DNA of 64,000 nucleotides, taken from a virus. A program made the translations under genes and the position numbers. Every line of letters starts with the position of its first letter. Position 1 is the first letter of the stretch. Below are positions 1-41,129 of the stretch, in pieces. The notes beneath the pieces were generated by a model that was not told the DNA's origin, searched no databases, and worked only from the letters and a program-made list of their open reading frames with translations. Location: positions 1-64,000 of the IMG/VR virus record IMGVR_UViG_3300035698_013740, one strand, 5' to 3'.

Positions 1-456
1 ACGGCTAAACAAGGATTACCTACAGATGTACACCTCAGTTCAGATGGAACTACTATGATTGTAGCTGGAACGTTTGGTGGTACTAGTAATAATTCACTAG
101 ATAGATATACATTATCACAGGCGTGGACGTTGGCTTCTGCAACTCACGACGAAGCGGGGTCATTATCGCACATGGCAAATCACTCTGGAGCTTCATATGG
201 TATTTGGGGGATTGACTTTAACACCGACGGAACGACATTAATCGTAGCTGGATATGGTCCGTACGATATGGTACAACAATATTCACTGTCATCTGCATAT
301 GATTTAACTACGTTGGATTATCAATATGCTAAAACAATAAATGTAATGGACGGTGGTGCAGGTACCCCAACGAACATACGATTTGGAAATAGTGGTGCTA
401 AAGTTTACATAAATTCATTTGATGATCAAGTCATGTACGAATATGACTTAACATAA
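1..456 (+). CDS. C-terminal part of a tail fibre/receptor-binding protein with beta-propeller-like repeats (gene starts upstream of window)
   Basis: Frame is open from base 1; repeated units 'YTLSQAWTLASA', 'GIDFNTDGTTLIV', 'QYSLSSAYDLTT'. Confidence 0.55.
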   Translation, partial: TAKQGLPTDVHLSSDGTTMIVAGTFGGTSNNSLDRYTLSQAWTLASATHDEAGSLSHMANHSGASYGIWGIDFNTDGTTLIVAGYGPYDMVQQYSLSSAYDLTTLDYQYAKTINVMDGGAGTPTNIRFGNSGAKVYINSFDDQVMYEYDLT

Positions 457-29615: not shown

Positions 29616-31019
29616 ATGGCAAAACGGAAAAAAAAGATTTTATTGTTGTCTGATGATTTACGAATGCACTCAGGAATAGCAACAATTAGCAGGCAAATAG
29701 TTACAGGTACTGCAGACAAATTTGACTGGGTTCAAATGGGCGCTGCAATAACTCATCCTGATGAAGGAAAAATATTTGATCTCTCTCAAGCAATTCAAGA
29801 AGAAACTGGGTGTAAAGATGCTAGCGTAAAGGTTTATCCTTGCTCAGGCTACGGAGATCCAAATAAGCTAAGGGAAATTATAGCTAGAGAACAGCCCGAT
29901 GCAATTCTCCACTTTACCGATCCTAGATATTGGATATGGTTATATGAATCTGCACACGAATTTAGAGAAAAACTTCCAATTTTATTCTATCACATTTGGG
30001 ATGATCTCCCAGATCCAATGTATAATAGAAATTATTTTGAATCATGTGATTGGATTTCATGTATTTCTAAGCAAACATATGGAATCGTTAGGAGAGTTTG
30101 GGGAAGTAAAAGGGAATCTACTTGGAATCAGCCAAAAAAGTGGCAAGTAAAATACGTTCCCCATGGAATCAGTTCAGATTGGTATTATCCTGTTACAGAT
30201 GAGGCTGAGCTAGTTGAAATGGAGACATTTACGGAACAGGTAAAAACTCAATGTGGTAAAAAGGATTTTGTTTTGTTATGGATTAACAGAAATATTAGAC
30301 GTAAACAGCCTGGAGATCTCATCTTAGCGTATAAAGAATTTTGTGATAAATTACCTAAGGCAAAATCTAAAAAATGCTTATTGTTAATGCACACTTCTCC
30401 AATTGATGATAATGGTACAGATCTAATTGCAGTAAAGAAAGAATTATGTCCAGATTATGATGTGATCTTCTCAGGTGGTGGATTAGATACTACTAGAATG
30501 AATTGGTTACATAATATGGCAGATGTTACAATTAATATTGCCAACAATGAGGGCTTTGGTCTTACAACATGTGAATCAATGATGGCTGGAAATCCAATTA
30601 TTGTAAATGTCACAGGTGGATTACAGGATCAATGTGGATTTTCAGTTGATGGAGTAGAATTAGATGAAGAAGATTATGTAAAGCATGGATCACTACATAA
30701 TTGGAAAACATGGGAAGGCAAAGTAGATCACGGAGTATGGGTGAAACCAATTTGGTCTAGAGTTAGAAGTCTTAATGGTTCACCACCTACCCCATATATT
30801 TTCGATGACAGAGTAGATTACGAAGAAGTATCAGATAAGATTATGGAATGGTACAATACTCCAGCAGATGAAAGAAAGGCTGCAGGATTAGCAGGAAGGC
30901 AATGGCTATTAGATGGTAAATTAAACCATAATTACATGTGTGATGCCATGGCAGACGGAATAAACGATACATTAAAAAATTGGAAACCTCTTAAACGATT
31001 TACTGTAAATAAAATATGA
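29616..31019 (+). CDS. GT-B (GT4-like) glycosyltransferase
   Basis: 'NRNIRRKQ','NEGFGLTTCESMMAG','TGGLQDQ'. Confidence 0.9.
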   Translation: MAKRKKKILLLSDDLRMHSGIATISRQIVTGTADKFDWVQMGAAITHPDEGKIFDLSQAIQEETGCKDASVKVYPCSGYGDPNKLREIIAREQPDAILHFTDPRYWIWLYESAHEFREKLPILFYHIWDDLPDPMYNRNYFESCDWISCISKQTYGIVRRVWGSKRESTWNQPKKWQVKYVPHGISSDWYYPVTDEAELVEMETFTEQVKTQCGKKDFVLLWINRNIRRKQPGDLILAYKEFCDKLPKAKSKKCLLLMHTSPIDDNGTDLIAVKKELCPDYDVIFSGGGLDTTRMNWLHNMADVTINIANNEGFGLTTCESMMAGNPIIVNVTGGLQDQCGFSVDGVELDEEDYVKHGSLHNWKTWEGKVDHGVWVKPIWSRVRSLNGSPPTPYIFDDRVDYEEVSDKIMEWYNTPADERKAAGLAGRQWLLDGKLNHNYMCDAMADGINDTLKNWKPLKRFTVNKI

Positions 31020-31483
31020 TAGAAATTAAAGCAGCAAGTGACTTTTTCCTAGACATTCAAAACAGATTTTCAGTATTCCTTGCTGGGAGTATTGAAATGG
31101 GAAAGGCAGAAAAGTGGCAAGATAAGGTAGTTAAATTATTGGAAGAAGATGACGTAATTGTCTTAAATCCAAGACGTGATGATTGGGACTCATCATGGGA
31201 ACAAACGGATGGTGATAATGAATTTACAAAACAAGTAGAATGGGAATTATTAGCTCAGACATATTGTGATTTGATCATAATGTATTTTGATCCTAACACT
31301 ACATCTCCAATTACACTGTTAGAACTTGGCTTATTTGGAGCAACACATCCACAATCAATTGTTGTATGTTGCCCAGAAGGATTTTACAGAAAAGGAAATG
31401 TGGATGTTACATGTAGATGGTACGGAATTAAACAAGTTAATTCAATCGAAGAATTGGTTAACGAAGTAAAGGGTAGATTATAA
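31016..31483 (+). CDS. Nucleoside 2-deoxyribosyltransferase-like protein
   Basis: 'VFLAGSI','WQ','NPRR','QVEWE','SPITLLELG'. Confidence 0.85.
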   Translation: MIEIKAASDFFLDIQNRFSVFLAGSIEMGKAEKWQDKVVKLLEEDDVIVLNPRRDDWDSSWEQTDGDNEFTKQVEWELLAQTYCDLIIMYFDPNTTSPITLLELGLFGATHPQSIVVCCPEGFYRKGNVDVTCRWYGIKQVNSIEELVNEVKGRL

Positions 31484-31888
31484 ATGACAAAATTGCAAGA
31501 AGCAATACAGCGTGGTATACATAAAGTATCTGACCAACTTCATAGACAAACCATGTGTGGTGGACCCGAAGTTTTATACGTGTCACCACGGGTATATACT
31601 GAAATTGAAAGAATGGACGGGTTCTATGATGGGACGTATTGCAACCGATACCACATCGTCAAAACGAATGCATTTATAGCAGGACCAGATGTATATGCAA
31701 TAGTACCACGAGGTAGATTGACATACACATGTGAACCAACTGATAGTACGCCAATAGTTGATGCTGAGGGGTTGGATACACTACTCGATATACCACATAT
31801 TAATATTGAAGTGGTACGTGAGATACAACTGGCAGTGGATGCGACGTTTGAATTTACAAAAGAAGAGTGGGAAGAATTAAATGATTAA
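31484..31888 (+). CDS. Small protein resembling a C-terminal segment of T4-type major capsid protein
   Basis: 'IHKVSDQLHRQTMCGGPEVLYVSPRVYTEIERMDGF...NRY' resembles gp23-family 'I.KVSN.IH..TLRGGANF.V.SP.VATILE...GF' (recalled consensus). Confidence 0.55.
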   Translation: MTKLQEAIQRGIHKVSDQLHRQTMCGGPEVLYVSPRVYTEIERMDGFYDGTYCNRYHIVKTNAFIAGPDVYAIVPRGRLTYTCEPTDSTPIVDAEGLDTLLDIPHINIEVVREIQLAVDATFEFTKEEWEELND

Positions 31889-33164
31889 ACCATTATTAAT
31901 ATTTAGTGGACCAGTAGAAACACGATCAGGATACGGTGATCATGCTAGAGATCTAGTTTTATCCCTTATTAAAATGGATAAATTTGATATTAAAATAGCA
32001 TCTACTAGATGGGGTAGCACTCCTATGAATGCACTCTCTACTAGTAATGAAGATCATCAAAGGATACAAAATAGAATCCTAACCCAAAATCCAGATAGAC
32101 CTGTTGACATATGGGTTCAAGTTACAGTACCTCACGAATTTCAAAAGAACGGAAGATTCAATATTGGTATCACTGCCGGAATAGAAACTACCGCTGTATC
32201 TCTAGATTGGATACATGGATGCAACAGAATGGATATGGTTATTGTTCCATCAAATCATGCTAAGGTTTGCTTAGAAGGCACCCAATACAAAGAACAAAAC
32301 AACCAAACTAGTGAAGTTGTTAATGTTCATAAGGTCAATGTTCCTGTTGAAGTTCTATTTGAAGGAACAGATACAAATGTATTTAACAGCGAATACATTT
32401 CTGACGAACATGTAGAAAGTGAGTTATTAAATGTAAAGGACGATTTCAATTTCTTATTTGTAGGCCACTGGCTTCCTGGAGAATTAGGACAAGATCGCAA
32501 AGATGTTGGCATGATGATAAAAACATTCCTAAGTGTTTTCAAAAATAAGAAGGATGCACCTGGATTAATTTTAAAAACTTCTCAAGCTACATTTAGTGTA
32601 TTAGATAGAGAACGAATTGCAACTAATATTAGAGATATTAAGGGAAGCATAACTGGAAAATTACCTAATATCTATTTGTTGCATGGAGATATGACACAAC
32701 CTCAATTAAATTCATTATTTAATCATGATAAGGTTAAAGCAATGGTATCATTTACTAAGGGTGAAGGATATGGAAGACCACTTCAAGAATTTATGTTCAG
32801 TGGAAAGCCAATTATATCATCAAATTGGTCAGGTCATATTGATTTCCTCACAGGATATGCAGATTTAATAGATGGTGAACTGACACCCGTGCATCCAACT
32901 GCAGCAAATAATATGATATTAGAACATGCAAGTTGGTATACATTGAATTATAGTAATGCAGGTAAGGCTCTAATGGAAATGTTTAAAAGTTATGATGAGA
33001 AGATTAAGCACACTAGTGGATTAGTAGAATCTAGATCTTATAAATTTTCTTTAGATTCTATGGATGTAGAATTTGAAAAGCTAATAGAAAAATACGTTAC
33101 AGCACAAACACAGGTTCCACTTAAGTTACCAACAGGTGGGTTGCCTACGCTAAAACAATTATAA
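31881..33164 (+). CDS. GT-B (GT4-like) glycosyltransferase
   Basis: 'SGYG.HARD','DRKD','GEGYGRPLQE','WSGHIDF'. Confidence 0.9.
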   Translation: MIKPLLIFSGPVETRSGYGDHARDLVLSLIKMDKFDIKIASTRWGSTPMNALSTSNEDHQRIQNRILTQNPDRPVDIWVQVTVPHEFQKNGRFNIGITAGIETTAVSLDWIHGCNRMDMVIVPSNHAKVCLEGTQYKEQNNQTSEVVNVHKVNVPVEVLFEGTDTNVFNSEYISDEHVESELLNVKDDFNFLFVGHWLPGELGQDRKDVGMMIKTFLSVFKNKKDAPGLILKTSQATFSVLDRERIATNIRDIKGSITGKLPNIYLLHGDMTQPQLNSLFNHDKVKAMVSFTKGEGYGRPLQEFMFSGKPIISSNWSGHIDFLTGYADLIDGELTPVHPTAANNMILEHASWYTLNYSNAGKALMEMFKSYDEKIKHTSGLVESRSYKFSLDSMDVEFEKLIEKYVTAQTQVPLKLPTGGLPTLKQL

Positions 33165-33167
33165 ATT

Positions 33168-33695
33168 ATGGCAAATTATTCAGCAATATACAAACAGGCA
33201 GCTATCTCAGAGCATGCAGTAAGCCCTACAGGGATACTTCCTATGCAGCTTATAGCATTCGATTATAAGACTCCTGGACCAAGGCGCATTGGATTATCAT
33301 TGGGATATATTCCTAGCACAAAGATGCTACATTGCATTAGACTTAATGCCCTTCCACTTAATCATTTTAGATTACTTATGAAGAATATGATAGATCATAA
33401 ACTTCGTAACATTTATAAGAAGGCAAACAAGCGTAATGTTTTAATCGAATCAATTATAGTAAATAAATTTAGACTTCCATTTGAATCTGTTCCATATGGT
33501 CAGTTACAAAGTTTTTATGCAAACAATTTTAAAAACAACGCATACATAAAAAAGAATCCGGTGTATAGATCGTATCATATGCCTGATATGTCTGCAGCTA
33601 CTGTAATGTTACCAGATTTAGAATATCTAGGATTAATTCCAAGAAAGAATAAACAATCTCCAACGGCAGAGGATATATGGAAGACAACAAAATAA
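33168..33695 (+). CDS. Hypothetical basic protein (weak resemblance to DNA end protector gp2)
   Basis: 'FDYK','LHCIRLNALP','YRSY'. Confidence 0.4.
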   Translation: MANYSAIYKQAAISEHAVSPTGILPMQLIAFDYKTPGPRRIGLSLGYIPSTKMLHCIRLNALPLNHFRLLMKNMIDHKLRNIYKKANKRNVLIESIIVNKFRLPFESVPYGQLQSFYANNFKNNAYIKKNPVYRSYHMPDMSAATVMLPDLEYLGLIPRKNKQSPTAEDIWKTTK

Positions 33696-34372
33696 AAGTT
33701 TCATATGCAATAACTGTCTCTACTGAAATTGAAGAATTAAAGAGACTTATCCATAAGTTAACTTTAGCTAGAGAAGCTTGGGAGAATCAACTAACTAGTG
33801 AAGTTGTTGTATTAGTGGATAAAAGTAATACAACAGAAGAGGTAGTTGAATTTGTAAAAAGTTTAAGTGAGTGGCAACTTCATGGATATGGCCAAGGCTA
33901 TGCAACTAGATCAATTACTAAGGTAGAATTTGCAGATCTAAATAAAGATTTTGCTACATTTAAAAACACTCTAAATTCATTATGCTCAGGCAAATGGATT
34001 TTTCAGTTAGATGCAGATGAGTATCCTCATGATCATCTATTGGAAAACATAAATGAAATATTAGACATCAATGAAGATGTAGAAGTTATATGGGTTCCTA
34101 GAGTTAATACAGTAGAAGGATTAACAAACGAAGATACTGCTCGTTGGAGATGGCATGTAACTGAAAATGGTTGGATTAATTGGCCTGACGCGCAATTGCG
34201 ACTCTACAGAAATAAGCCAGAAATTAAATGGAAAAAACCTGTTCACGAACAGCTTAGTGGATATAAAGTTTGGTCTGCACTTCCAGATGAAGAACAATAT
34301 GCATTGTATCATCCTAAAGGAATTGATAGACAAAGAAGACAAAACGCATTTTACGATACAATACAGGATTGA
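33677..34372 (+). CDS. GT2 glycosyltransferase
   Basis: 'SYAITV','WIFQLDADE','WPD.QLRLY','VHEQL','HPK'. Confidence 0.88.
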   Translation: MEDNKIKVSYAITVSTEIEELKRLIHKLTLAREAWENQLTSEVVVLVDKSNTTEEVVEFVKSLSEWQLHGYGQGYATRSITKVEFADLNKDFATFKNTLNSLCSGKWIFQLDADEYPHDHLLENINEILDINEDVEVIWVPRVNTVEGLTNEDTARWRWHVTENGWINWPDAQLRLYRNKPEIKWKKPVHEQLSGYKVWSALPDEEQYALYHPKGIDRQRRQNAFYDTIQD

Positions 34373-34911
34373 ATCAGAGGCTAATAGCATATCGTGGAAA
34401 TATTCAAGGCAATAAGCCATACTTTCTTAATAAACCAGAGTATGTTGATATCGCTTTACAATATGGATATGATGCAATGGTAGATGTATGGATTAAAGAT
34501 GGTGAGTATTGGTTAGGTCATGACAATCCTAGATATGCAATACCTACTCACTTTTTATCTACAAAGGGAATATGGTGTAGGGCCATGACACGAGAAGCAC
34601 TTGATTCTATGATGAATGAGAAAGATATTCATTGCTTCATGAATGGTAATGATCCAATAGTCCTTACTAACAGGAATATAATGTGGTTAAATGATTCTAC
34701 CAAACTGTTTGACGATATGAAATCTGATGCTGTTTATTTTGATCCAGAAGGTGCTGAAGAAACAATGTATAGAAACATATACGCAATATGTTCAAACAAC
34801 GTAAGAGCAATACGGGAGATATTAACAGGAGAGCAGCAAAGAGAATTTAATATGAATGACGCTAGAGATATTGCAGATATAATACCAGACCTTGATAACT
34901 TTACAGGATAA
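34369..34911 (+). CDS. GDPD/PLC-like phosphodiesterase-fold protein, possibly inactive
   Basis: 'IAYRGN..G...NKPEY...AL..GYDAMVDVW....YWLGHD.P.Y'. Confidence 0.65.
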   Translation: MNQRLIAYRGNIQGNKPYFLNKPEYVDIALQYGYDAMVDVWIKDGEYWLGHDNPRYAIPTHFLSTKGIWCRAMTREALDSMMNEKDIHCFMNGNDPIVLTNRNIMWLNDSTKLFDDMKSDAVYFDPEGAEETMYRNIYAICSNNVRAIREILTGEQQREFNMNDARDIADIIPDLDNFTG

Positions 34912-35626
34912 TATGTACTCAATAATACTTCCATATAGAGATAGATTAAATCATCTAACCAAACTGCTTCCTAGACTCCATGAGAAGTTTGATGGAACGG
35001 ATTACGAAATTTTAATAATAGAACAGGATGATACTGAAAGCTTTAAATTGGCTCAGCTATTTAACGTTGGTGCGTTAAATTCTAAAGGTACCAACTTAGT
35101 ATTTCATGATGTAGATCATTATCCAAGTGATGACGTATCATATGAAATAACTGATAGCCCAGTATATCCAATTCAAAAAGTATTATTTCTGTCAGAAGAT
35201 GGAGAATCATTACGTCCAATGTGGGATGTTCCTGCAGGATATCGTAAGTTTTCAAAGTCAGCAGACGGACACTGGGGTGGAGTGTTTATTCTTACCAAAA
35301 AAATGTTTGAAGGTATTGGTGGTTTTAATCCAATGTATTCCGGTTGGGGTAAAGAGGATAATGATAGGCACCAAAGACTACTGTTAGCAGGATATCACCC
35401 AATTAGAAGACAGGTTGGCACATTTTACGGACTATATCATGAAGACAATTGTCCTTCACATACTGATACTGACTTCGTAAAAAACCACCAAATACTGAAT
35501 GATATGCAAACGTATCTTCACATTGGTCACAAAAATATGACGTATGACTTTACTGAATTTTCGGTTGGTAATGATAAAAGCGTAAGATGGTTAAAGGTTA
35601 CAAACATTAAAACGGTTGGAATATGA
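34892..35626 (+). CDS. GT7 (beta-1,4-galactosyltransferase-like) glycosyltransferase
   Basis: 'PYRDR..HL','IEQ','FNVG','FHDVD','GG','GWGKEDND'. Confidence 0.9.
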   Translation: MITLQDNMYSIILPYRDRLNHLTKLLPRLHEKFDGTDYEILIIEQDDTESFKLAQLFNVGALNSKGTNLVFHDVDHYPSDDVSYEITDSPVYPIQKVLFLSEDGESLRPMWDVPAGYRKFSKSADGHWGGVFILTKKMFEGIGGFNPMYSGWGKEDNDRHQRLLLAGYHPIRRQVGTFYGLYHEDNCPSHTDTDFVKNHQILNDMQTYLHIGHKNMTYDFTEFSVGNDKSVRWLKVTNIKTVGI

Positions 35627-36525
35627 AATACAAAAAGGATCTCATAGTAGGAGCAGTGTCTTCAAATTATGAAGTTAGTGATGTAGTCAATTGGAGTGAG
35701 TCTATTATTAAGTCAGGATTTAAAGGAGATGTAGTAGTATTCTGCTACAACTTTAAGGCGACCGACGCCATTCCCGATTTTTTTAGGAACAAAAATTTTA
35801 AAGTCGTAATTCCGCATTCGGATATGTTTGGTAATGATGTTGAAAAATTTCAAACCCATACTGGTGAAGGAGATTCTACGAATAACTACACATTGGTACA
35901 TCAGCAACGATTTTTTCACTATTGGCAATATTTGAAATATGGTGATGAAATGTATAGATACATTATTACTACTGATGTTAGGGATGTCGTATTTCAAACA
36001 AATCCGTCAGAATATCTAGATTCATTTGATGATGGTGAATATACAATTTTAGCATCTAGTGAGAATGTGTTAGCAGGCAACGAGCCATGGTTTAGCGGAA
36101 TGGCAACAAAACATTTTGGTGGATACGTATTCAATGATGTGTTATCTAAACGTCCAGTATTTAATGTAGGTACATTTGCTGCAAGACATAAAGTTTTTAT
36201 GGATATGTCAATAAACAATTATTACTTATCATTATCATTTCATCCAGGAGTTCTTCCAGCCGTTGGGGATCAAACTGGATTTAATTTGTTGATTGCTACT
36301 GCATATTCAAATTATACTGCAAATTTGGGACCAAGTTCACATTGGGGATGTCAATGTGGAACAATGTTAAATCCGCAATTTGCACAACTTCAAGTAGAAT
36401 CTATTGATGGCATACATGAAAAGGATAGTATTGTTTACAATGGAGATACTCCGTTTGTAATTTTACATCAATATGATAGAGTTCCAGACCTAGTAGAGAA
36501 AATAAACGAAAAATATAGTAAATAA
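35623..36525 (+). CDS. GT-A fold glycosyltransferase-like protein
   Basis: 'RFFHY','TDVRDVVFQTNP','NVG','DQ..FN','HQYDR'. Confidence 0.75.
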   Translation: MKYKKDLIVGAVSSNYEVSDVVNWSESIIKSGFKGDVVVFCYNFKATDAIPDFFRNKNFKVVIPHSDMFGNDVEKFQTHTGEGDSTNNYTLVHQQRFFHYWQYLKYGDEMYRYIITTDVRDVVFQTNPSEYLDSFDDGEYTILASSENVLAGNEPWFSGMATKHFGGYVFNDVLSKRPVFNVGTFAARHKVFMDMSINNYYLSLSFHPGVLPAVGDQTGFNLLIATAYSNYTANLGPSSHWGCQCGTMLNPQFAQLQVESIDGIHEKDSIVYNGDTPFVILHQYDRVPDLVEKINEKYSK

Positions 36526-36526
36526 G

Positions 36527-36889
36527 ATGATTGATTTAGTTGAAAAGTGGAAAGTTACTGGCTTGTTGGAGGGCATTGCTAGTACAGAACGTAAAGAAGT
36601 TATATCTAAACTGTTAGAAGAGTCTTCTAAATATTTAATAAGAATATCAGGAACTAGAACAATATCTGAACAGGCTGCAGGAGTTGTATTACCGGCAGTT
36701 CGACGAGTATATGGTAGTAACGGATACGAAGAATTTGACATTATTGATTTTTGTAAATTTATAAATCTTGAGGTTAGGAAATGGAAACCTAAGTTTAACC
36801 ACTACTCAAAATTAGACGAAGAAGCAGAAATGACTATTTATATATGTGAACAATACATAAAACAAGAGAGACGTAAAAATGGCAGTTGA
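36527..36889 (+). CDS. Small protein resembling the N-terminus of T4-type major capsid protein
   Basis: 'LVEKWKVTGLLEGI....KEVISKLLE' and 'AGVVLPAVRRVYG' resemble gp23-family 'KW.KTGLLEG...MA.LLEN' and 'GVALPLVRR.F' (recalled consensus). Confidence 0.7.
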   Translation: MIDLVEKWKVTGLLEGIASTERKEVISKLLEESSKYLIRISGTRTISEQAAGVVLPAVRRVYGSNGYEEFDIIDFCKFINLEVRKWKPKFNHYSKLDEEAEMTIYICEQYIKQERRKNGS

Positions 36890-37031
36890 AAAAATATATG
36901 AAATTGATTGGGATCTTGTCATCACATTTGATGATTTAAAGAGAATTTTACGGGTATTGGATTTCAGATTTTCGGAATCTGCTACCAATTTAAACCTGAT
37001 AAGTGATTTAACTAAAGAAGTGGTGGTATAA
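36879..37031 (+). CDS. 50-aa hypothetical protein (not in ORF track)
   Basis: MAVEKIYEIDWDLVITFDDLKRILRVLDF...; fills the gap and abuts both neighbours. Confidence 0.55.
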   Translation: MAVEKIYEIDWDLVITFDDLKRILRVLDFRFSESATNLNLISDLTKEVVV

Positions 37032-37033
37032 GT

Positions 37034-37411
37034 ATGGCAATTAATTACCCAGTAGCAGAAATGGCAGATCGATATACGATTGCCCGATTGAAATTTGAAC
37101 GAATTCAATCAAACGAACGTTTCAGATTTTCAGCAGAAATGGATATTTATTTCGAAGAGCTTGATAAATACGAAGAATTGAATCCGTTTTTGGAAAGACT
37201 GTTCGAGAGCAACGGCAAAATCTGGGACCTAGAGACTGAGATTAGACGAGGCGCACTTGAAGATAAAGGGTTTGCGTGGATTGGTGAACGAGCAATTGCT
37301 ATTCGAGATGAGAATCGAGTTAGAGTTGGTATCAAGGGAGAAATCGTTGACCATTACGGTGAAGGATTCAAAGATATGAAGTGTAACTACTCAGGCGGGG
37401 ATGAAGAGTGA
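37034..37411 (+). CDS. DUF6165-like coiled-coil protein
   Basis: 'E.ADR.TI..LK','N.KIWDLE..IR','N..RV.IK..I'. Confidence 0.55.
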   Translation: MAINYPVAEMADRYTIARLKFERIQSNERFRFSAEMDIYFEELDKYEELNPFLERLFESNGKIWDLETEIRRGALEDKGFAWIGERAIAIRDENRVRVGIKGEIVDHYGEGFKDMKCNYSGGDEE

Positions 37412-38307
37412 GAGTATTAATCAAAACATATGGATACTTTGGAGATATTCTTTTTGCATCATCAATTGCTAAATCTCTTAAGACCCATACTCAATATGGG
37501 GTAACTCATGTAGATTTTCTTATTGGATTTCCACAACTTCATGAATTAATGTCAAATAATCCATATATTGATAGAGTATGGGTATCTGATCATCCTAATC
37601 CAATGCCACATAATTCAATATTAGATGAATCACAATATGATAGGATGTATCAATTAGGTCAACTATCATTTAGTCTTCCACCTCCTGAAGAATTTCAAAG
37701 GTTGATTGGTATTGTCAATCCTAGAAAGAATTTTGAAGTGTATACTACTAAAGCTAACGATGAGTTAGTCCAAGCAGAATTTGCGTTAATTCGAGAAAAG
37801 TTAGATCCTTCTCAAAAAATAATTTATATACCATACAATTGGGATGCAAAGGCTTTTAGATATACTGAAGATGAATACGAAGCAGGTAGATATCAAAGAC
37901 CTAGGGATGCAGAAATTCAAACTAGAAGTATTGATAAAATAGTAGATAGTCTATCTCAATATCATTACGTAGTTTTTGGTGGTCTTCCTTACGGTAATTC
38001 ACAAATTGGAGTTGAAAGTCTTCAAAAGAGTTTGGCGTTGGAAGCGTCTATTATAAAGTATGCAGATTGGTATGTTGGTCCAGAAAGTGGATTATGCAAT
38101 ATAGCAGGTGGAGTTGGTACAAAAACGATAATAAATTGGGATTGGGTACATCACTTATATGGTCCTAAGGGAATAATAAAGCAATGTGATCCACCAATGT
38201 TAGGACCTGCAAACATGTTTGGTGCTGATAAACATTGGGTAATAGATCCATATGTAACTGATGAAGAATTATTTCAGAACATAGTGGGCATCATTAAAAA
38301 TAATTAA
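37408..38307 (+). CDS. GT9 (heptosyltransferase-like) glycosyltransferase
   Basis: 'GDILFAS','NNPYIDRV','ASIIKYADWYVGPESGL.NIAGGVGTKTI'. Confidence 0.8.
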   Translation: MRVLIKTYGYFGDILFASSIAKSLKTHTQYGVTHVDFLIGFPQLHELMSNNPYIDRVWVSDHPNPMPHNSILDESQYDRMYQLGQLSFSLPPPEEFQRLIGIVNPRKNFEVYTTKANDELVQAEFALIREKLDPSQKIIYIPYNWDAKAFRYTEDEYEAGRYQRPRDAEIQTRSIDKIVDSLSQYHYVVFGGLPYGNSQIGVESLQKSLALEASIIKYADWYVGPESGLCNIAGGVGTKTIINWDWVHHLYGPKGIIKQCDPPMLGPANMFGADKHWVIDPYVTDEELFQNIVGIIKNN

Positions 38308-38316
38308 AAAAAAAAT

Positions 38317-38982
38317 ATGAGTAAAAATTGTAAATGCGCATCGTGCATATGTGGCACATTAGATAGTAAAGACTTTATAGGTTGGACAGAATCTATTGGA
38401 ATAACACTAAATCCTGCACAAGTGATGCTGTATAACCATGTTATGAATAGTAATAGATGTATTCAATATAAATGTAGGCGACTTGCAGGATTTTCATTTT
38501 TATATACACTGCTTGCATATTGGCTAGTTGTTAAGCATGATAGGTTAGTAGCTATGATAGTACCAAATCATTCAGGAATTAAGTTAATAAAGCAGGATTT
38601 AGTTCGTATGGGATTAGATTGGCCAACTAATGGATTTCTCATAGTGCCAAGTAATAATATAGAAATTGGATTAAGGGGATATGGAAAACTAGATTATGTA
38701 TTTTTTGATGAAGCTAGTTTCTGTAAAAATTTAGAAGACGCAGTTCAAGATTTAAAACGATATACTGCAGGATCAGCTGATGATACTATAGTTCTTTATT
38801 CATCGTTTGCTCATCCATATCTTACATATTTGCAAAGAATGAGTTCTAGGTGGGATAGTGAATGGACGTTTTTTCAAGTTCCTGCATTTGTATTCAATAT
38901 GCAACATAGTAACGCAATGACGCCACAACAAGTTGGACAACCACAATACGCAATGGAAATGGAGTGTAAATTTGATGGATAG
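38317..38982 (+). CDS. Degenerate stand-alone terminase large-subunit ATPase-like domain
   Basis: Q-motif 'LNPAQ', altered Walker A 'KCRRLAGFS', 'LRG', Walker B 'VFFDEASF', altered coupling motif 'LYSS', end 'YAMEMECKF'; no nuclease domain. Confidence 0.65.
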   Translation: MSKNCKCASCICGTLDSKDFIGWTESIGITLNPAQVMLYNHVMNSNRCIQYKCRRLAGFSFLYTLLAYWLVVKHDRLVAMIVPNHSGIKLIKQDLVRMGLDWPTNGFLIVPSNNIEIGLRGYGKLDYVFFDEASFCKNLEDAVQDLKRYTAGSADDTIVLYSSFAHPYLTYLQRMSSRWDSEWTFFQVPAFVFNMQHSNAMTPQQVGQPQYAMEMECKFDG

Positions 38983-39991
38983 ATTAAAAAAATCAGTTTT
39001 AATAACAGGAGTAGCAGGACTATTAGGTTCTAGGCTAGCTACATGGATTTTTGAAAATACAAATTACTATGTAGTAGGTGTTGATGATCTCTCAGGTGGG
39101 TATTGTGAAAACGTCCCAGAAGGTGTTCATTTTCATAAAATAGATTTATCAATAGCAGAAGGATTTAATTTCACTAATTTGAATAAAATGTTTAAAACAT
39201 ATAAACCAGATTATGTATTTCATTTTGCAGCGTACGCAGCAGAAGGATTGAGTCCGTTTATTAGATGTTTCAATTACGAAAATAATTTAGTAGCAACTGC
39301 AAATATTGTAAACATGTGCATCAAATATGATGTGAAGAGATTAGTATTTACAAGTTCTATGGCGGTTTATGGAAATGCAGCTCCACCATTTAATGAAGAT
39401 GTTCAGCCTAACCCAATTGATCCATATGGAGTGGCAAAATTTGCTGCAGAGCAAGACATTAAAATCGCTGGAGATCAACATGGATTAGATTGGTGCATTA
39501 TACGACCTCATAATGTGTATGGTGTAAATCAAAATATTTGGGATAGATATCGAAACGTTCTTGGCATTTGGATGTATCAGCATCTCAATGGTCAGCCTAT
39601 GACAATATTTGGTGATGGAGAACAAACTAGAGCATTCAGTTATATTGATGATTGTTTGGAACCTTTTTGGAAATCAGCTGTTAAAGAAGAAGCGTCAAAG
39701 CAAATTATAAATTTGGGTGGCATTCATCACATTTCTATTAATGATGCAGCACATACACTTAAAGAAGTGATAGGCGGTGGAGAAATCGTTTATAGAGAAG
39801 CAAGACACGAAGTTAAAAATGCATATCCTACTTGGAAAAAATCTGTAGATATTTTAGAATTTGAACATAATACAGATTTTAGAGAAGGATTAAAATTGAT
39901 GTGGGAATGGGCACAAACTCAACCAAACCGTGATCAATTTATTTGGCCTGAATATGAATTAGAGAAGGGAATATATTCCTTTTGGAAATAA
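38975..39991 (+). CDS. NAD-dependent NDP-sugar epimerase/dehydratase
   Basis: 'GVAGLLG','FTSSMAVYG','YGVAK','RPHNVYG','GDGEQTRAF'; ATG 38975 preferred over 38933. Confidence 0.93.
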   Translation: MDRLKKSVLITGVAGLLGSRLATWIFENTNYYVVGVDDLSGGYCENVPEGVHFHKIDLSIAEGFNFTNLNKMFKTYKPDYVFHFAAYAAEGLSPFIRCFNYENNLVATANIVNMCIKYDVKRLVFTSSMAVYGNAAPPFNEDVQPNPIDPYGVAKFAAEQDIKIAGDQHGLDWCIIRPHNVYGVNQNIWDRYRNVLGIWMYQHLNGQPMTIFGDGEQTRAFSYIDDCLEPFWKSAVKEEASKQIINLGGIHHISINDAAHTLKEVIGGGEIVYREARHEVKNAYPTWKKSVDILEFEHNTDFREGLKLMWEWAQTQPNRDQFIWPEYELEKGIYSFWK

Positions 39992-40006
39992 TAAAGAGAT
40001 AAGATT

Positions 40007-40426
40007 ATGTTGATATATGTAATAACTGCGTTAGTAATGGCACTTGTCATTGGTTTTGCTTTGGGATTTGATAAAGGACTACGAAGAGCAAAGGAAGTTA
40101 GTATAGTCATTGATGGAAAGAAAATTTCTAGTACATTTGACGTAACAGGTAAGCGAGGAAATACTGAAGATCTTTCAGTAGTAATTGGAGATGCAGAAGC
40201 TAGCATTGCTGCAGTTAGGGACCGATTTACTAAACTGATTAATCATCCAGGTCGTGGACCTTCTACCCAAAAGGCAGGAATATTGAGTACAGATAATGTA
40301 GGAAACATTACGTCATACGTAACGGTAGAAGAATTAGAACCATCGTATGTTCAATCACTGCATGATAAATTAGAATCTGATACTGAGATAATTAGAAATG
40401 TAGCAAATCAAAATTATGATGCATAG
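40007..40426 (+). CDS. Membrane-anchored hypothetical protein
   Basis: N-terminal hydrophobic helix; frame stays open 25 codons past its TAG. Confidence 0.6.
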   Translation: MLIYVITALVMALVIGFALGFDKGLRRAKEVSIVIDGKKISSTFDVTGKRGNTEDLSVVIGDAEASIAAVRDRFTKLINHPGRGPSTQKAGILSTDNVGNITSYVTVEELEPSYVQSLHDKLESDTEIIRNVANQNYDA

Positions 40427-40439
40427 CAGTTAGAGCTTA

Positions 40440-40496
40440 CTGATGTTATACGTGAACTAGAAGCTGATGTTATGCGTGAACTAGAAGCTGAAGTTA
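40440..40496 (+). repeat. 24-bp tandem repeat (2.4 copies)
   Basis: CTGATGTTAT(A/G)CGTGAACTAGAAG x2 plus CTGAAGTTA. Confidence 0.85.
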
Positions 40497-41129
40497 ATGA
40501 ATAAACAACTAGAAAGATTAGTTCATCTTAAGGATAGAGGATTTAACCCAAAATCTATAATTGATATTGGCGCAAACATAGGTCAATGGTACGCAATTGC
40601 CAATGATGTATTTCCAAACGCAGATATTCTAAGCATTGAACCAAATCCACCATCTTTTGATGAATTGGTTAAAATAAATCCAAATTCAAAACAATTGCTA
40701 CTTGGCGATTCTAATAATAAAGTAGTTGAATTTTTCGTTAATGAAGATGATGATAAGTGCACAGGAGCTTCTATTTATTTAGAACAAACACATTATTATT
40801 CTACTCCAACTGTGATTCCGTTAACAATGGGTACATTGGATAAACTGAATATGAAATTTGATCTTATCAAAATAGATGTTCAAGGAGCTGAACTGGATGT
40901 GTTACAGGGTGGCCTTAATACCCTTCAACACGCCACATTCGTAACTTTAGAACTTGCAGTTATGAGATATAATAAAGGTGCACCATTAATAAATGAAGTA
41001 ATACAATATATGAGTGCACATGATTTCATGATATTTGATATATTTGAATTACATTATTTAAACGGCGCACTTAACCAAATTGATATCTGCTTTTTAAACA
41101 AAAAGTATAACTATATGGTTGAACTTTAG
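40497..41129 (+). CDS. FkbM-family methyltransferase
   Basis: 'IDIGANIG','IEPNP','IKIDVQGAELDVLQG'. Confidence 0.92.
   Translation: MNKQLERLVHLKDRGFNPKSIIDIGANIGQWYAIANDVFPNADILSIEPNPPSFDELVKINPNSKQLLLGDSNNKVVEFFVNEDDDKCTGASIYLEQTHYYSTPTVIPLTMGTLDKLNMKFDLIKIDVQGAELDVLQGGLNTLQHATFVTLELAVMRYNKGAPLINEVIQYMSAHDFMIFDIFELHYLNGALNQIDICFLNKKYNYMVEL

What the first reader, a model, noticed from the sequence alone, without database searches (positions are those of the whole stretch)
31484..38982. Set of stand-alone capsid and terminase fragments: candidate decoy system against pattern-sensing immunity
Seen: three short intact ORFs, tightly coupled to neighbours and far from any head-assembly operon, each resembling one piece of a virion-assembly protein: MCP C-terminal segment (31484), MCP N-terminal segment (36527) and terminase ATPase domain with a broken Walker A (38317). 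Known: bacterial defences detect these proteins (Avs/STAND NTPases bind terminase; CapRel and Lit are triggered by major capsid protein). Inference: the phage keeps diverged non-functional mimics that bind sensors without activating them. Alternatives are assembly modulators or interference with co-infecting phages. Three such fragments in one accessory island look unlikely to be random debris.
Basis: partly seen in the sequence, partly recalled or inferred. Interest (0 to 1): 0.85.

Follow-up and report, generated by a model that had tools for sequence, protein, structure and literature searches.

The report
Stand-alone capsid and terminase fragment genes
A large uncultured T4-like phage carries, inside a cluster of sugar-transferase genes, two small intact genes that are diverged copies of pieces of its type of head-shell protein and a third that looks like the motor half of the DNA-packaging enzyme; they are real, but what they do is untested.

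Summary
ORF2 (36527-36889) residues 3-70 are homologous to residues 24-94 of the gp23-type major capsid protein (MCP) of related phages (hhalign 97.4%, E 1.1e-11). ORF1 (31484-31888) residues 10-61 match MCP 344-411 (89.7%, E 1.8e-6). ORF3 (38317-38982) belongs to a rare three-cluster family with a P-loop ATPase fold. It lines up motif for motif with the ATPase half of the clade's large terminase (TerL), but every statistic is marginal.

- The "broken" Walker A is the same deviant type as in the clade's genuine TerLs, and K, R, D and E are kept.
- The three genes do not travel together.
- ORF1 has a full-length counterpart in a 484-kb phage. ORF2 has no homologue.

The contig is about 34% complete and lacks the head module, so the phage's own MCP and TerL could not be seen. 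No test here bears on a decoy function.

My reading is that they are exapted partial paralogues acting as interface mimics with an unknown partner (0.45). Functionless remnants remain possible, mainly for ORF2.

Earlier follow-ups of this scan reported similar capsid-fragment genes on other phage DNA, two of them inside sugar-transferase operons. My four literature searches found no description.

The parts
31484..31888 (+). ORF1, 134 aa: mini-protein derived from the C-terminal third of a gp23-type major capsid protein
   Evidence: ORF. hhalign against the MCP alignment A3 gives 89.7%, E 1.8e-6, and 94.8%, E 5e-8 with its counterpart added. A 143-aa counterpart in LR756508.1 is collinear over the full length. 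Codon positions show GC1>GC2>GC3. One variant, H105Q, was seen.
31511..31666 (+). ORF1 residues 10-61: copy of the MCP A-domain core (MCP 344-411). It lacks the 16 residues that MCPs have between the ES.PGY and NR(F/Y) blocks. The MCP-invariant RGGANF reads CGGPEV here.
31718..31885 (+). ORF1 tail (residues 79-133): weak likeness to the MCP E-loop region (DIPxINxE). An alternative collinear reading aligns TPIVD with the MCP's TP(I/L)VYD.
   Evidence: BLASTP E 6e-4 (Mel-JY01), 0.022-0.086 (G004) and above 0.2 (others). hhalign 4.3%, E 0.0095. The huge-phage mini-protein shows the same DIPxI piece. Inconclusive.
36527..36889 (+). ORF2, 120 aa: mini-protein copying the N-terminal region of a gp23-type MCP. 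No homologue was found.
   Evidence: ORF. The homologue search returned only itself. All tblastn hits are N-termini of full-length MCPs.
36533..36736 (+). ORF2 residues 3-70: equivalent to MCP 24-94 (the KW.KTGLLEGI block to the LP.VRRV block). The match ends just before the MCP's invariant VSVQPMNLPSG.
   Evidence: hhalign 97.4%, E 1.1e-11. Profile against the contig E 1.2e-13. BLASTP 36-47% identity. MCP invariant columns.
36779..36868 (+). ORF2 residues 85-114: weak likeness to the start of the MCP spine helix (WTPELAQDLNAYHSIDAEAELT), with a 4-residue gap
   Evidence: BLASTP E 1e-4 to 8e-3 against all four MCPs. hhalign 10.6%, E 0.0029. Profile against the contig E 7.5. Inconclusive.
38317..38982 (+). 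ORF3, 221 aa: member of a rare family (three 90% clusters, 221-234 aa) with a P-loop (ASCE) ATPase fold. Probably a TerL ATPase-domain-only paralogue with an N-terminal CxCxxCxC motif.
   Evidence: Family. AF2 model pTM 0.62, with mean pLDDT 76-86 over the ten-residue blocks from residue 61 to 130. Foldseek results. Motif register with TerL.
38419..38496 (+). ORF3 Q35 to S60: Q-motif-like LNPAQ, then 17 residues on, invariant K52-C-R-R-L-x-x-F-(S/T), aligned with TerL Q49...K66-x-R-Q-x-G-I-S-T
38707..38712 (+). ORF3 D131-E132, Walker B (YVF(F/C)DEA), aligned with the TerL hhhhDE

Best explanation
The three ORFs are real small protein genes that arose by partial duplication of virion-assembly genes and were kept.
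- ORF2 copies the N-terminal region of the gp23-type capsid protein. From what I recall of T4, this is the propeptide plus the start of the N-arm, the part that faces the scaffolding core. ORF2 drops the rest of the fold.
- ORF1 belongs to a sparse family of 134-143-residue proteins built from the C-terminal third of the capsid protein.
- ORF3 belongs to a rare family that is most likely the ATPase half of the large terminase without its nuclease half. Its catalytic-type residues are retained.

I think they act as interface mimics. Each presents one surface of MCP or TerL and competes with, or docks onto, whatever normally reads that surface.

Shown: homology, intactness, compositional amelioration, and relatives for ORF1 and ORF3.
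Inferred: expression, folding, mimicry and the partner.

They are not an obligate three-gene system.
For: - Homology of ORF2 and ORF1 to MCP.
- ORF3 aligns with TerL N-halves over its whole length. Invariant columns fall at L31, Q35, K52, R54, W69, D131, E132, E214 and C217. It ends where the nuclease half would begin.
- BFVD fold hits include 12 named large terminases among the 50 listed, the best named one at E 2.1e-4, TM 0.51.
- All three show the GC1>GC2>GC3 pattern and GC3 typical of the contig's genes.
- All three are packed without spacers.
- Neutral-drift simulation from a relative's MCP DNA, substitutions only: a stop-free outcome at 50-60% identity occurs in 2-4% of runs for the ORF2-like segment and 10-13% for the ORF1-like segment.
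- ORF1 has a 143-aa counterpart in the 484-kb phage LR756508.1, 96 kb from that phage's MCP, collinear over the full length. The protein-atlas feature search puts ORF1 nearest to clusters of 139-aa (115 members, score 0.91) and 174-aa proteins (a lead only).
- ORF3 relatives at 56% and 49% identity keep length and motifs.
- Only these ORFs, plus one unrelated domain match, were flagged as pieces of longer proteins among 112 ORFs.
Against: - ORF2 has no homologue, and ORF1 none by the word-indexed search of 5.8 billion proteins.
- None of 20 relatives' records nor Mel-JY01 has an extra MCP piece at E<=1, and none has an ORF3 relative. Many of those records are fragments.
- MCP-invariant motifs are lost or altered.
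- Both MCP pieces lie within 5 kb of each other, which fits one duplication that later broke up.
- Every TerL statistic for ORF3 is marginal, and only 1 of 3 members hits phrog_2.
- A full HMMER profile search of 1.84 billion representatives found no TerL at E<=0.001.
- SF2 helicases score as well as terminases in the PDB fold search.
- The divergence could predate fragmentation, which would void the drift argument.
- No dN/dS could be computed. The only variant seen is one non-synonymous SNP.
- No expression data exist.
Confidence: 0.45

Rival explanations
1. Functionless remnants. One stray copy of an MCP gene (own or foreign) landed in the hypervariable sugar-gene island by illegitimate recombination and was cut up by later insertions. 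ORF1 and ORF2 are the pieces that happen to remain open. ORF3 is an unrelated accessory ATPase.
For: - ORF2 is a singleton.
- No extra MCP pieces occur in 20 relatives' records or in Mel-JY01.
- The two pieces lie 4.6 kb apart, with the C-terminal piece first, so the order is scrambled.
- Compared with Mel-JY01, ORF1 and the neighbouring deoxyribosyltransferase-like gene sit as an insertion between two glycosyltransferase genes that are adjacent there.
- Invariant MCP motifs are degraded.
Against: - Both ORFs are intact, with ATG starts abutting the upstream stops.
- Both have coding-type codon-position composition.
- Stop-free survival is unlikely under the drift model.
- ORF1 has a full-length counterpart with the same architecture in a very distant phage.
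- ORF3 has conserved relatives.
Confidence: 0.25
2. Immune decoys. The fragments bind host sensors of MCP or TerL, such as Avs-type STAND NTPases, CapRel or Lit, without activating them.
For: - MCP and TerL are known triggers. Avs7, Avs8, Avs10 and Dsr1 sense MCPs (PMC13581612, abstract and passages read). Avs1-3 sensing terminase, CapRel and Lit are recalled knowledge.
- The ORFs are diverged copies of exactly these two proteins.
Against: - Nothing here tests binding.
- The host and its defences are unknown.
- ORF2 stops just before the VSVQPMNLPSG block. By my recollection of T4 gp23, that block corresponds to the core of the Gol peptide that triggers Lit.
- ORF3 keeps catalytic-type residues, so it is not obviously an inert dummy.
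- The three genes do not co-occur elsewhere.
- The paper passages read describe no phage-encoded decoy. All four 'decoy' hits there are mass-spectrometry usage.
Confidence: 0.15
3. Glycosylation helpers. The capsid-derived mini-proteins work with the surrounding sugar transferases, for example as adaptors that bring the enzymes to the capsid protein, or as capsid-docking carriers of the glycan.
For: - ORF1 and ORF2 are embedded in a run of glycosyltransferase and sugar-modifying genes spanning 29616-41129.
- Two earlier follow-ups of this scan reported MCP-fragment genes inside sugar-transferase operons of other phages. These are unchecked leads, not evidence.
Against: - The ORF1 counterpart in LR756508.1 sits between DNA-polymerase pieces and AAA clamp-loader-like genes, not among sugar genes.
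- Mel-JY01 has the syntenic sugar island without any MCP piece.
- No acceptor-type tract or glycan evidence was found.
Confidence: 0.1

Closest known systems
gp23-type major capsid protein of T4-like phages (Pfam PF07068). Nearest examples here: Microcystis phage Mel-JY01 capsid protein (PP395634.1, 24999-26627) and the MCPs of IMG/VR relatives.
   Same: ORF2 3-70 and ORF1 10-61 are homologous to MCP 24-94 and 344-411, at 36-50% identity in these blocks.
   Different: - The ORFs are 120 and 134 aa, against 472-544 aa for the MCPs.
- More than half of the HK97 fold is missing.
- The insertion domain and the invariant VSVQPMNLPSG are absent, and RGGANF is changed.
- There is no PF07068 match at E<=10.
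- They lie among sugar genes rather than head genes.
Large terminase subunit ATPase domain (phrog_2; structural example P74-26 TerL ATPase, PDB 4znj)
   Same: - Same fold class.
- Same order and nearly the same spacing of motifs: the Q motif, K-x-R-x-x-G-h-S/T, hhhhDE, an S-S/S-T motif, and a terminal E-C-x-F block.
- The same deviant P-loop as the clade's TerLs.
   Different: - No nuclease domain.
- One extra residue in the P-loop.
- An N-terminal CxCxxCxC motif.
- 18-21% identity.
- No significant profile match.
T4 gp24, the vertex paralogue of gp23 (recalled knowledge)
   Same: A second MCP-derived gene in a T4-type phage.
   Different: gp24 is full length and structural, and lies in the head module. 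ORF1 and ORF2 are fragments outside it.
143-aa ORF of uncultured huge phage LR756508.1 (268235-268666)
   Same: Same length class and start point in the MCP. It shares ORF1's deletion relative to MCPs and the DIPxI tail. BLASTP E 2e-8, 27% identity over the full length.
   Different: It lies between replication genes, not sugar genes. No ORF2-like or ORF3-like gene occurs in that genome.

Membership tests
gp23-type major capsid protein (PF07068) | Significant sequence homology to family members | tested here: met
   ORF2: hhalign 97.4%, E 1.1e-11. ORF1: 89.7%, E 1.8e-6. BLASTP.
gp23-type major capsid protein (PF07068) | Complete HK97-type fold (N-arm, E-loop, P and A domains) in one chain of about 450-540 aa that passes the Pfam model | tested here: not met
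   The ORFs are 120 and 134 aa. PF07068 finds nothing on the contig at E<=10. The matches cover only MCP 24-94 and 344-411.
gp23-type major capsid protein (PF07068) | Invariant blocks of the clade's MCPs (VSVQPMNLPSG, RGGANF) | tested here: not met
   Invariant columns are listed. ORF2's match ends before VSVQPMNLPSG. ORF1 reads CGGPEV where MCPs read RGGANF.
Large terminase subunit (phrog_2) | Significant profile match to TerL | tested here: inconclusive
   phrog_2 E 0.1 in 1 of 3 members. E 0.0027 for the contig alone. hhalign 3.8%, E 0.011. Shuffle test 10, 61 and 9 of 1000. No TerL among the HMMER hits in 1.84 billion proteins.
Large terminase subunit (phrog_2) | ATPase motifs in TerL order and spacing (Q motif, P-loop, Walker B DE, coupling motif) | tested here: met
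   MAFFT alignment with 5 TerL N-halves. Spacings compare as follows: Q35/Q49 to K52/K66 is 17 residues in both; DE to S-S/S-T is 31 against 29; S to C is 55 against 57. An alignment program will always align, so this is supportive rather than a statistical test.
Large terminase subunit (phrog_2) | C-terminal RNase H-like nuclease domain | tested here: not met
   ORF3 ends at residue 221, aligned with TerL position about 252 of 527-536.
Large terminase subunit (phrog_2) | ASCE P-loop ATPase fold closest to TerL ATPase domains | tested here: inconclusive
   PDB: SF2 helicase domains and P74-26 TerL ATPase all fall at E 1e-3 to 1e-2. BFVD: terminases and helicases are mixed, best named terminase at E 2.1e-4. 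Model mean pLDDT is 56.8.
Phage anti-defence decoys of pattern sensors (Avs, CapRel, Lit) | Binds the sensor and blocks or fails to trigger it | not testable with these tools
   No host, sensor or binding data are available. No co-fold with a sensor was attempted.

The most novel reading that the evidence does not exclude
Large T4-type phages repeatedly evolve small stand-alone genes that copy single interfaces of their capsid protein and terminase. These would act as decoys or sponges for host sensors of the conserved virion proteins (Avs-type, Lit or CapRel-type). That would be an unrecognised class of counter-defence by self-mimicry.
Probability: 0.15. Interest if true: 0.85.

Novelty: new variant of a known kind. 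Interest (0 to 1): 0.58.

Why it matters
If these mini-proteins are functional, they are natural single-interface probes of the capsid protein and the packaging motor. They would point either to an unknown layer of head-assembly control or inter-phage interference, or to counter-defence by mimicry of the conserved proteins that bacterial immune sensors read.

The finding also carries two cautions. First, gene callers and family libraries miss these genes: Pfam, PHROGs and PDB sequence searches were blank. Second, a 'missing' Walker A lysine cannot be read as inactivity in a clade whose true terminases have the same P-loop.

Tried and rejected
- Pfam, PHROGs and PDB single-sequence searches of the three ORFs gave nothing significant. 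A PDB profile search with the ORF3 family gave only a chance-level hit.
- Atlas search for ORF2 gave no usable hit.
- DNA search of the island against phages found only a short glycosyltransferase match to Flavobacterium phages.
- tblastn of ORF3 and ORF1 against phages gave only chance-level hits. tblastn of the huge-phage mini-protein found only itself.
- Attempts to reach longer contigs of this phage or the contexts of ORF3 relatives all failed:
  - an exact 40-mer in viral and metagenome contigs found nothing;
  - the family alignments A2 and A6 as locus queries found nothing;
  So the 137-kb and 63.5-kb contigs named were not seen, and the phage's own MCP and TerL remain unseen.
- Co-fold of ORF1 with ORF2: the verdict was 'no answer', not evidence either way.
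- AF2 of ORF1 from a single sequence gave pLDDT 39.5, which is unusable and was not searched.
- Sequencing runs: no RNA holder was listed. The laid contigs were low-depth copies identical to the window apart from one SNP. Joints that skip 34125-38987 and 34363-39602 have sides under 30 letters and may come from other phages. Matches at 38300-38334 lie in an A-rich low-complexity stretch.
- The promoter and terminator scan was at or below the shuffle expectation.
- The Ralstonia phage RsoM2USA hit is a 411-aa protein, not a fragment.
- I considered whether ORF1 and ORF2 are the split functional MCP and rejected it. Together they cover well under half of the MCP and lack its invariant blocks.
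- Literature searches for published capsid or terminase decoys or fragment genes listed nothing relevant. Mel-JY01 is in no held paper. Supplements were not opened.

Full report
**Setting.** The window is the first 64 kb of a 72,381-bp linear IMG/VR viral contig that CheckV rates about 34% complete. All sizeable genes are on the + strand.
- It carries tail sheath, tube and baseplate genes at 1.9-5.8 kb.
- It carries a T4-type replication set: UvsX, exonuclease, DnaB-like helicase, ribonucleotide reductase, family B polymerase and clamp loader.
- After a PD-(D/E)XK nuclease gene comes a run of sugar genes spanning 29616-41129. These are GT4/GT1, a nucleoside 2-deoxyribosyltransferase-like gene, GT1, GT2, a GT7-like gene, an NAD-dependent epimerase/dehydratase and an FkbM methyltransferase.

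The nearest cultured relative is Microcystis phage Mel-JY01 (190 kb; polymerase 46.6% identical). It has the same gene order, including a sugar island behind the nuclease gene. Fourteen coded public runs that hold parts of the region are all labelled salt lake metagenome.

**The ORFs.** ORF1 (31484-31888, 134 aa), ORF2 (36527-36889, 120 aa) and ORF3 (38317-38982, 221 aa) are intact and packed against their neighbours.
- ORF1 and ORF2 have no spacer or a one-base spacer before the ATG, and 8- and 11-nt overlaps with the next start.
- Their codon-position composition (GC1>GC2>GC3, GC3 0.20-0.28) is that of the contig's other genes. ORF1 is somewhat GC-richer overall (z 1.7).

**Capsid likeness.** Library searches were blank. 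Direct comparison with the MCPs of relatives was not.
- Mel-JY01 has a 542-aa gp23-type MCP (PF07068, E 1.7e-79).
- ORF2 residues 5-119 match Mel-JY01 MCP 25-149 (strongest over ORF2 5-61 against MCP 25-84) at E 9e-15. ORF1 residues 12-47 match its 406-441 at E 1e-7.
- I collected 80 related loci through the sheath protein and built an 11-sequence MCP alignment.
- hhalign against it gives 97.4%, E 1.1e-11 for ORF2 3-70 against MCP 24-94, and 89.7%, E 1.8e-6 for ORF1 10-61 against MCP 344-411.
- The same profile run on the contig finds just these places, at E 1.2e-13 and 1.5e-5.
- ORF2's tblastn hits, in 21 stored loci (three of them overlapping stretches of the Mel-JY01 record) and in six phage records, all fall on the N-termini of full-length MCPs.

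Each ORF also has a weaker second resemblance. ORF2 85-114 resembles the start of the spine helix. ORF1 79-133 resembles the E-loop region. I treat both as possible, not shown. For ORF1 a collinear reading of part of the tail is also possible.

**What is missing from the MCP copies.** ORF2's match stops just before the MCP-invariant VSVQPMNLPSG. ORF1 reads CGGPEV where every MCP reads RGGANF, and it lacks 16 residues that MCPs have. Together the two ORFs cover well under half of an MCP, so they cannot be the split functional gene.

The head module is not on the contig.
- In the closer relatives the MCP lies about 18 kb upstream of the sheath gene, with tail-fibre genes between them. In the more distant group it lies about 5 kb upstream.
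- Of 20 relatives' records searched, 14 have exactly one MCP match and none has a second. The other 6 are fragments rated 8-34% complete.
- Of 12 records searched for TerL, 9 have one TerL.

That this phage has full-length MCP and TerL genes is therefore an inference, not an observation.

**Debris or genes?** Several results bear on this.
- A systematic blastp compared the contig's 112 gene-like ORFs with all ORFs of Mel-JY01 and of the related loci. It flagged only ORF1, ORF2 and one unrelated domain match (55-456) as pieces of longer proteins. The island is therefore not littered with fragments.
- A substitution-only drift simulation started from a relative's MCP DNA. Stop-free outcomes at 50-60% identity occurred in 2-4% of runs for the ORF2-like segment and 10-13% for the ORF1-like segment. 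This argues for selection on the reading frames only if the divergence followed the fragmentation.
- ORF1 is not alone. The MCP profile finds a second place in the 484-kb phage LR756508.1, 96 kb from that phage's MCP (E 5e-4). It is a 143-aa ORF that matches ORF1 at E 2e-8 and aligns with it over the full length, including the deletion and the DIPxI tail. It lies between DNA-polymerase pieces and AAA clamp-loader-like genes, not among sugar genes.
- The atlas feature search places ORF1 nearest to clusters of 139-aa (115 members, 0.91) and 174-aa proteins. This is a lead only.
- ORF2 has no homologue in the word-indexed search.
- Population data gave a single SNP, H105Q in ORF1, so no dN/dS was possible.

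**ORF3.** The family has three 90% clusters (221-234 aa; 56% and 49% identical to ORF3) and nothing else in two very large searches.
- Invariant residues include four N-terminal cysteines (CxCxxCxC), Q35, K52-C-R-R-L, D131-E132, Y-S-S and E-x-x-C-K.
- The AF2 model (three-sequence alignment, mean pLDDT 56.8, pTM 0.62; mean pLDDT 76-86 over the ten-residue blocks from residue 61 to 130) is an alternating beta/alpha P-loop-type domain.
- Against the PDB it hits SF2 helicase domains and the P74-26 terminase ATPase domain, all at E 1e-3 to 1e-2.
- Against predicted viral structures, 12 of the 50 listed rows are named large terminases (best E 2.1e-4, TM 0.51), mixed with helicases and PhoH.
- The sequence statistics are marginal throughout.
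- An alignment with five TerL N-halves nevertheless puts every motif in register. The Q-to-K, DE-to-S and S-to-C spacings agree within two residues. ORF3 ends where the nuclease half begins.

All eight TerLs of this clade read LK(A/S)RQ(M/T)GIST, with isoleucine where a classical P-loop has lysine and a lysine five residues before the glycine. ORF3 has the same pattern with one extra residue. From recollection, phage lambda's terminase has this kind of deviant P-loop.

I put the TerL origin of ORF3 at about 60-65%.

**Are the three a set?** I found no support for that.
- No relative's record has an ORF3 homologue (0 of 20; Mel-JY01).
- LR756508.1 has the ORF1-like gene but no ORF2-like or ORF3-like gene.
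- The two MCP pieces lie 4.6 kb apart and may stem from a single duplication.

**Function.** Nothing here tests function.
- The part of the MCP that ORF2 keeps is, by recollection of T4 gp23, the propeptide and the start of the N-arm. That region contacts the scaffolding core and is removed by the prohead protease. The most direct inference is a protein that docks where the MCP N-terminus docks.
- ORF2 lacks the block that I recall as the core of the Lit-triggering Gol peptide, which speaks mildly against a Lit-type decoy.
- MCP-sensing Avs7, Avs8, Avs10 and Dsr1 are in print (PMC13581612, abstract and passages). That paper's passages mention no phage decoy.
- My four literature searches listed no description of stand-alone capsid or terminase fragment genes.
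- Earlier follow-ups of this scan, on other genomes, reported similar MCP-fragment genes, two of them inside sugar-transferase operons. I could not test those claims, and the LR756508.1 context differs.

**Verdict.** I judge the three to be kept, exapted partial paralogues that work as interface mimics with an unknown partner (0.45). The rivals are functionless remnants (0.25, mainly ORF2), immune decoys (0.15) and glycosylation helpers (0.10).

Noticed in passing
L110-L118 and L005:15768-17366 (TerL genes of relatives): All eight genuine large terminases of this phage clade have a deviant P-loop, LK(A/S)RQ(M/T)GIST. Isoleucine stands in place of the classical Walker A lysine, and a lysine lies five residues before the glycine.
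   Followed up: partly
window 29616-33164 against L002 30827-33105: In Mel-JY01 two glycosyltransferase genes are adjacent. In this phage a nucleoside 2-deoxyribosyltransferase-like gene (31016-31483, PF15891 E 1.2e-33) and ORF1 sit between their orthologues. A 175-aa ORF without relatives (33168-33695) sits before the next shared GT2 gene.
   Followed up: partly
window 37034-37411: This 125-aa ORF has no family match and is the third GC-richest gene of the contig (GC 0.407, z 2.0; GC3 z 2.3). It lies between ORF2 and ORF3 and may be a recent acquisition.
   Followed up: no
L123 1364-13353 (LR756508.1 259363-271352): The huge phage's family B DNA polymerase is in two pieces with Hint/intein matches. 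A TnpB-like gene (OrfB_IS605 plus Cas12f1-like TNB) sits among the clamp-loader-like genes next to the capsid-fragment mini-gene.
   Followed up: no
window 34125-39602: Contigs of other, more abundant phages in two runs join 34125 to 38987 (depth 48) and 34363 to 39602 (depth 8). That would be the GT2 gene joined to the epimerase gene without the stretch holding ORF2 and ORF3. The flanks are only 24-26 letters, so this is weak.
   Followed up: no
window 55-456: The 133-aa ORF at the contig's left end matches an internal part (residues 113-180) of a 284-aa ORF upstream of the sheath gene in the closest relative (L011), E 1.8e-4.
   Followed up: no
L014, L018 (closer relatives): In the closer relatives, long tail-fibre genes (1166-1257 aa, phrog tail-fibre matches) lie between the head module and the sheath gene. 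In Mel-JY01 and the more distant group the MCP lies about 5 kb upstream of the sheath gene.
   Followed up: partly
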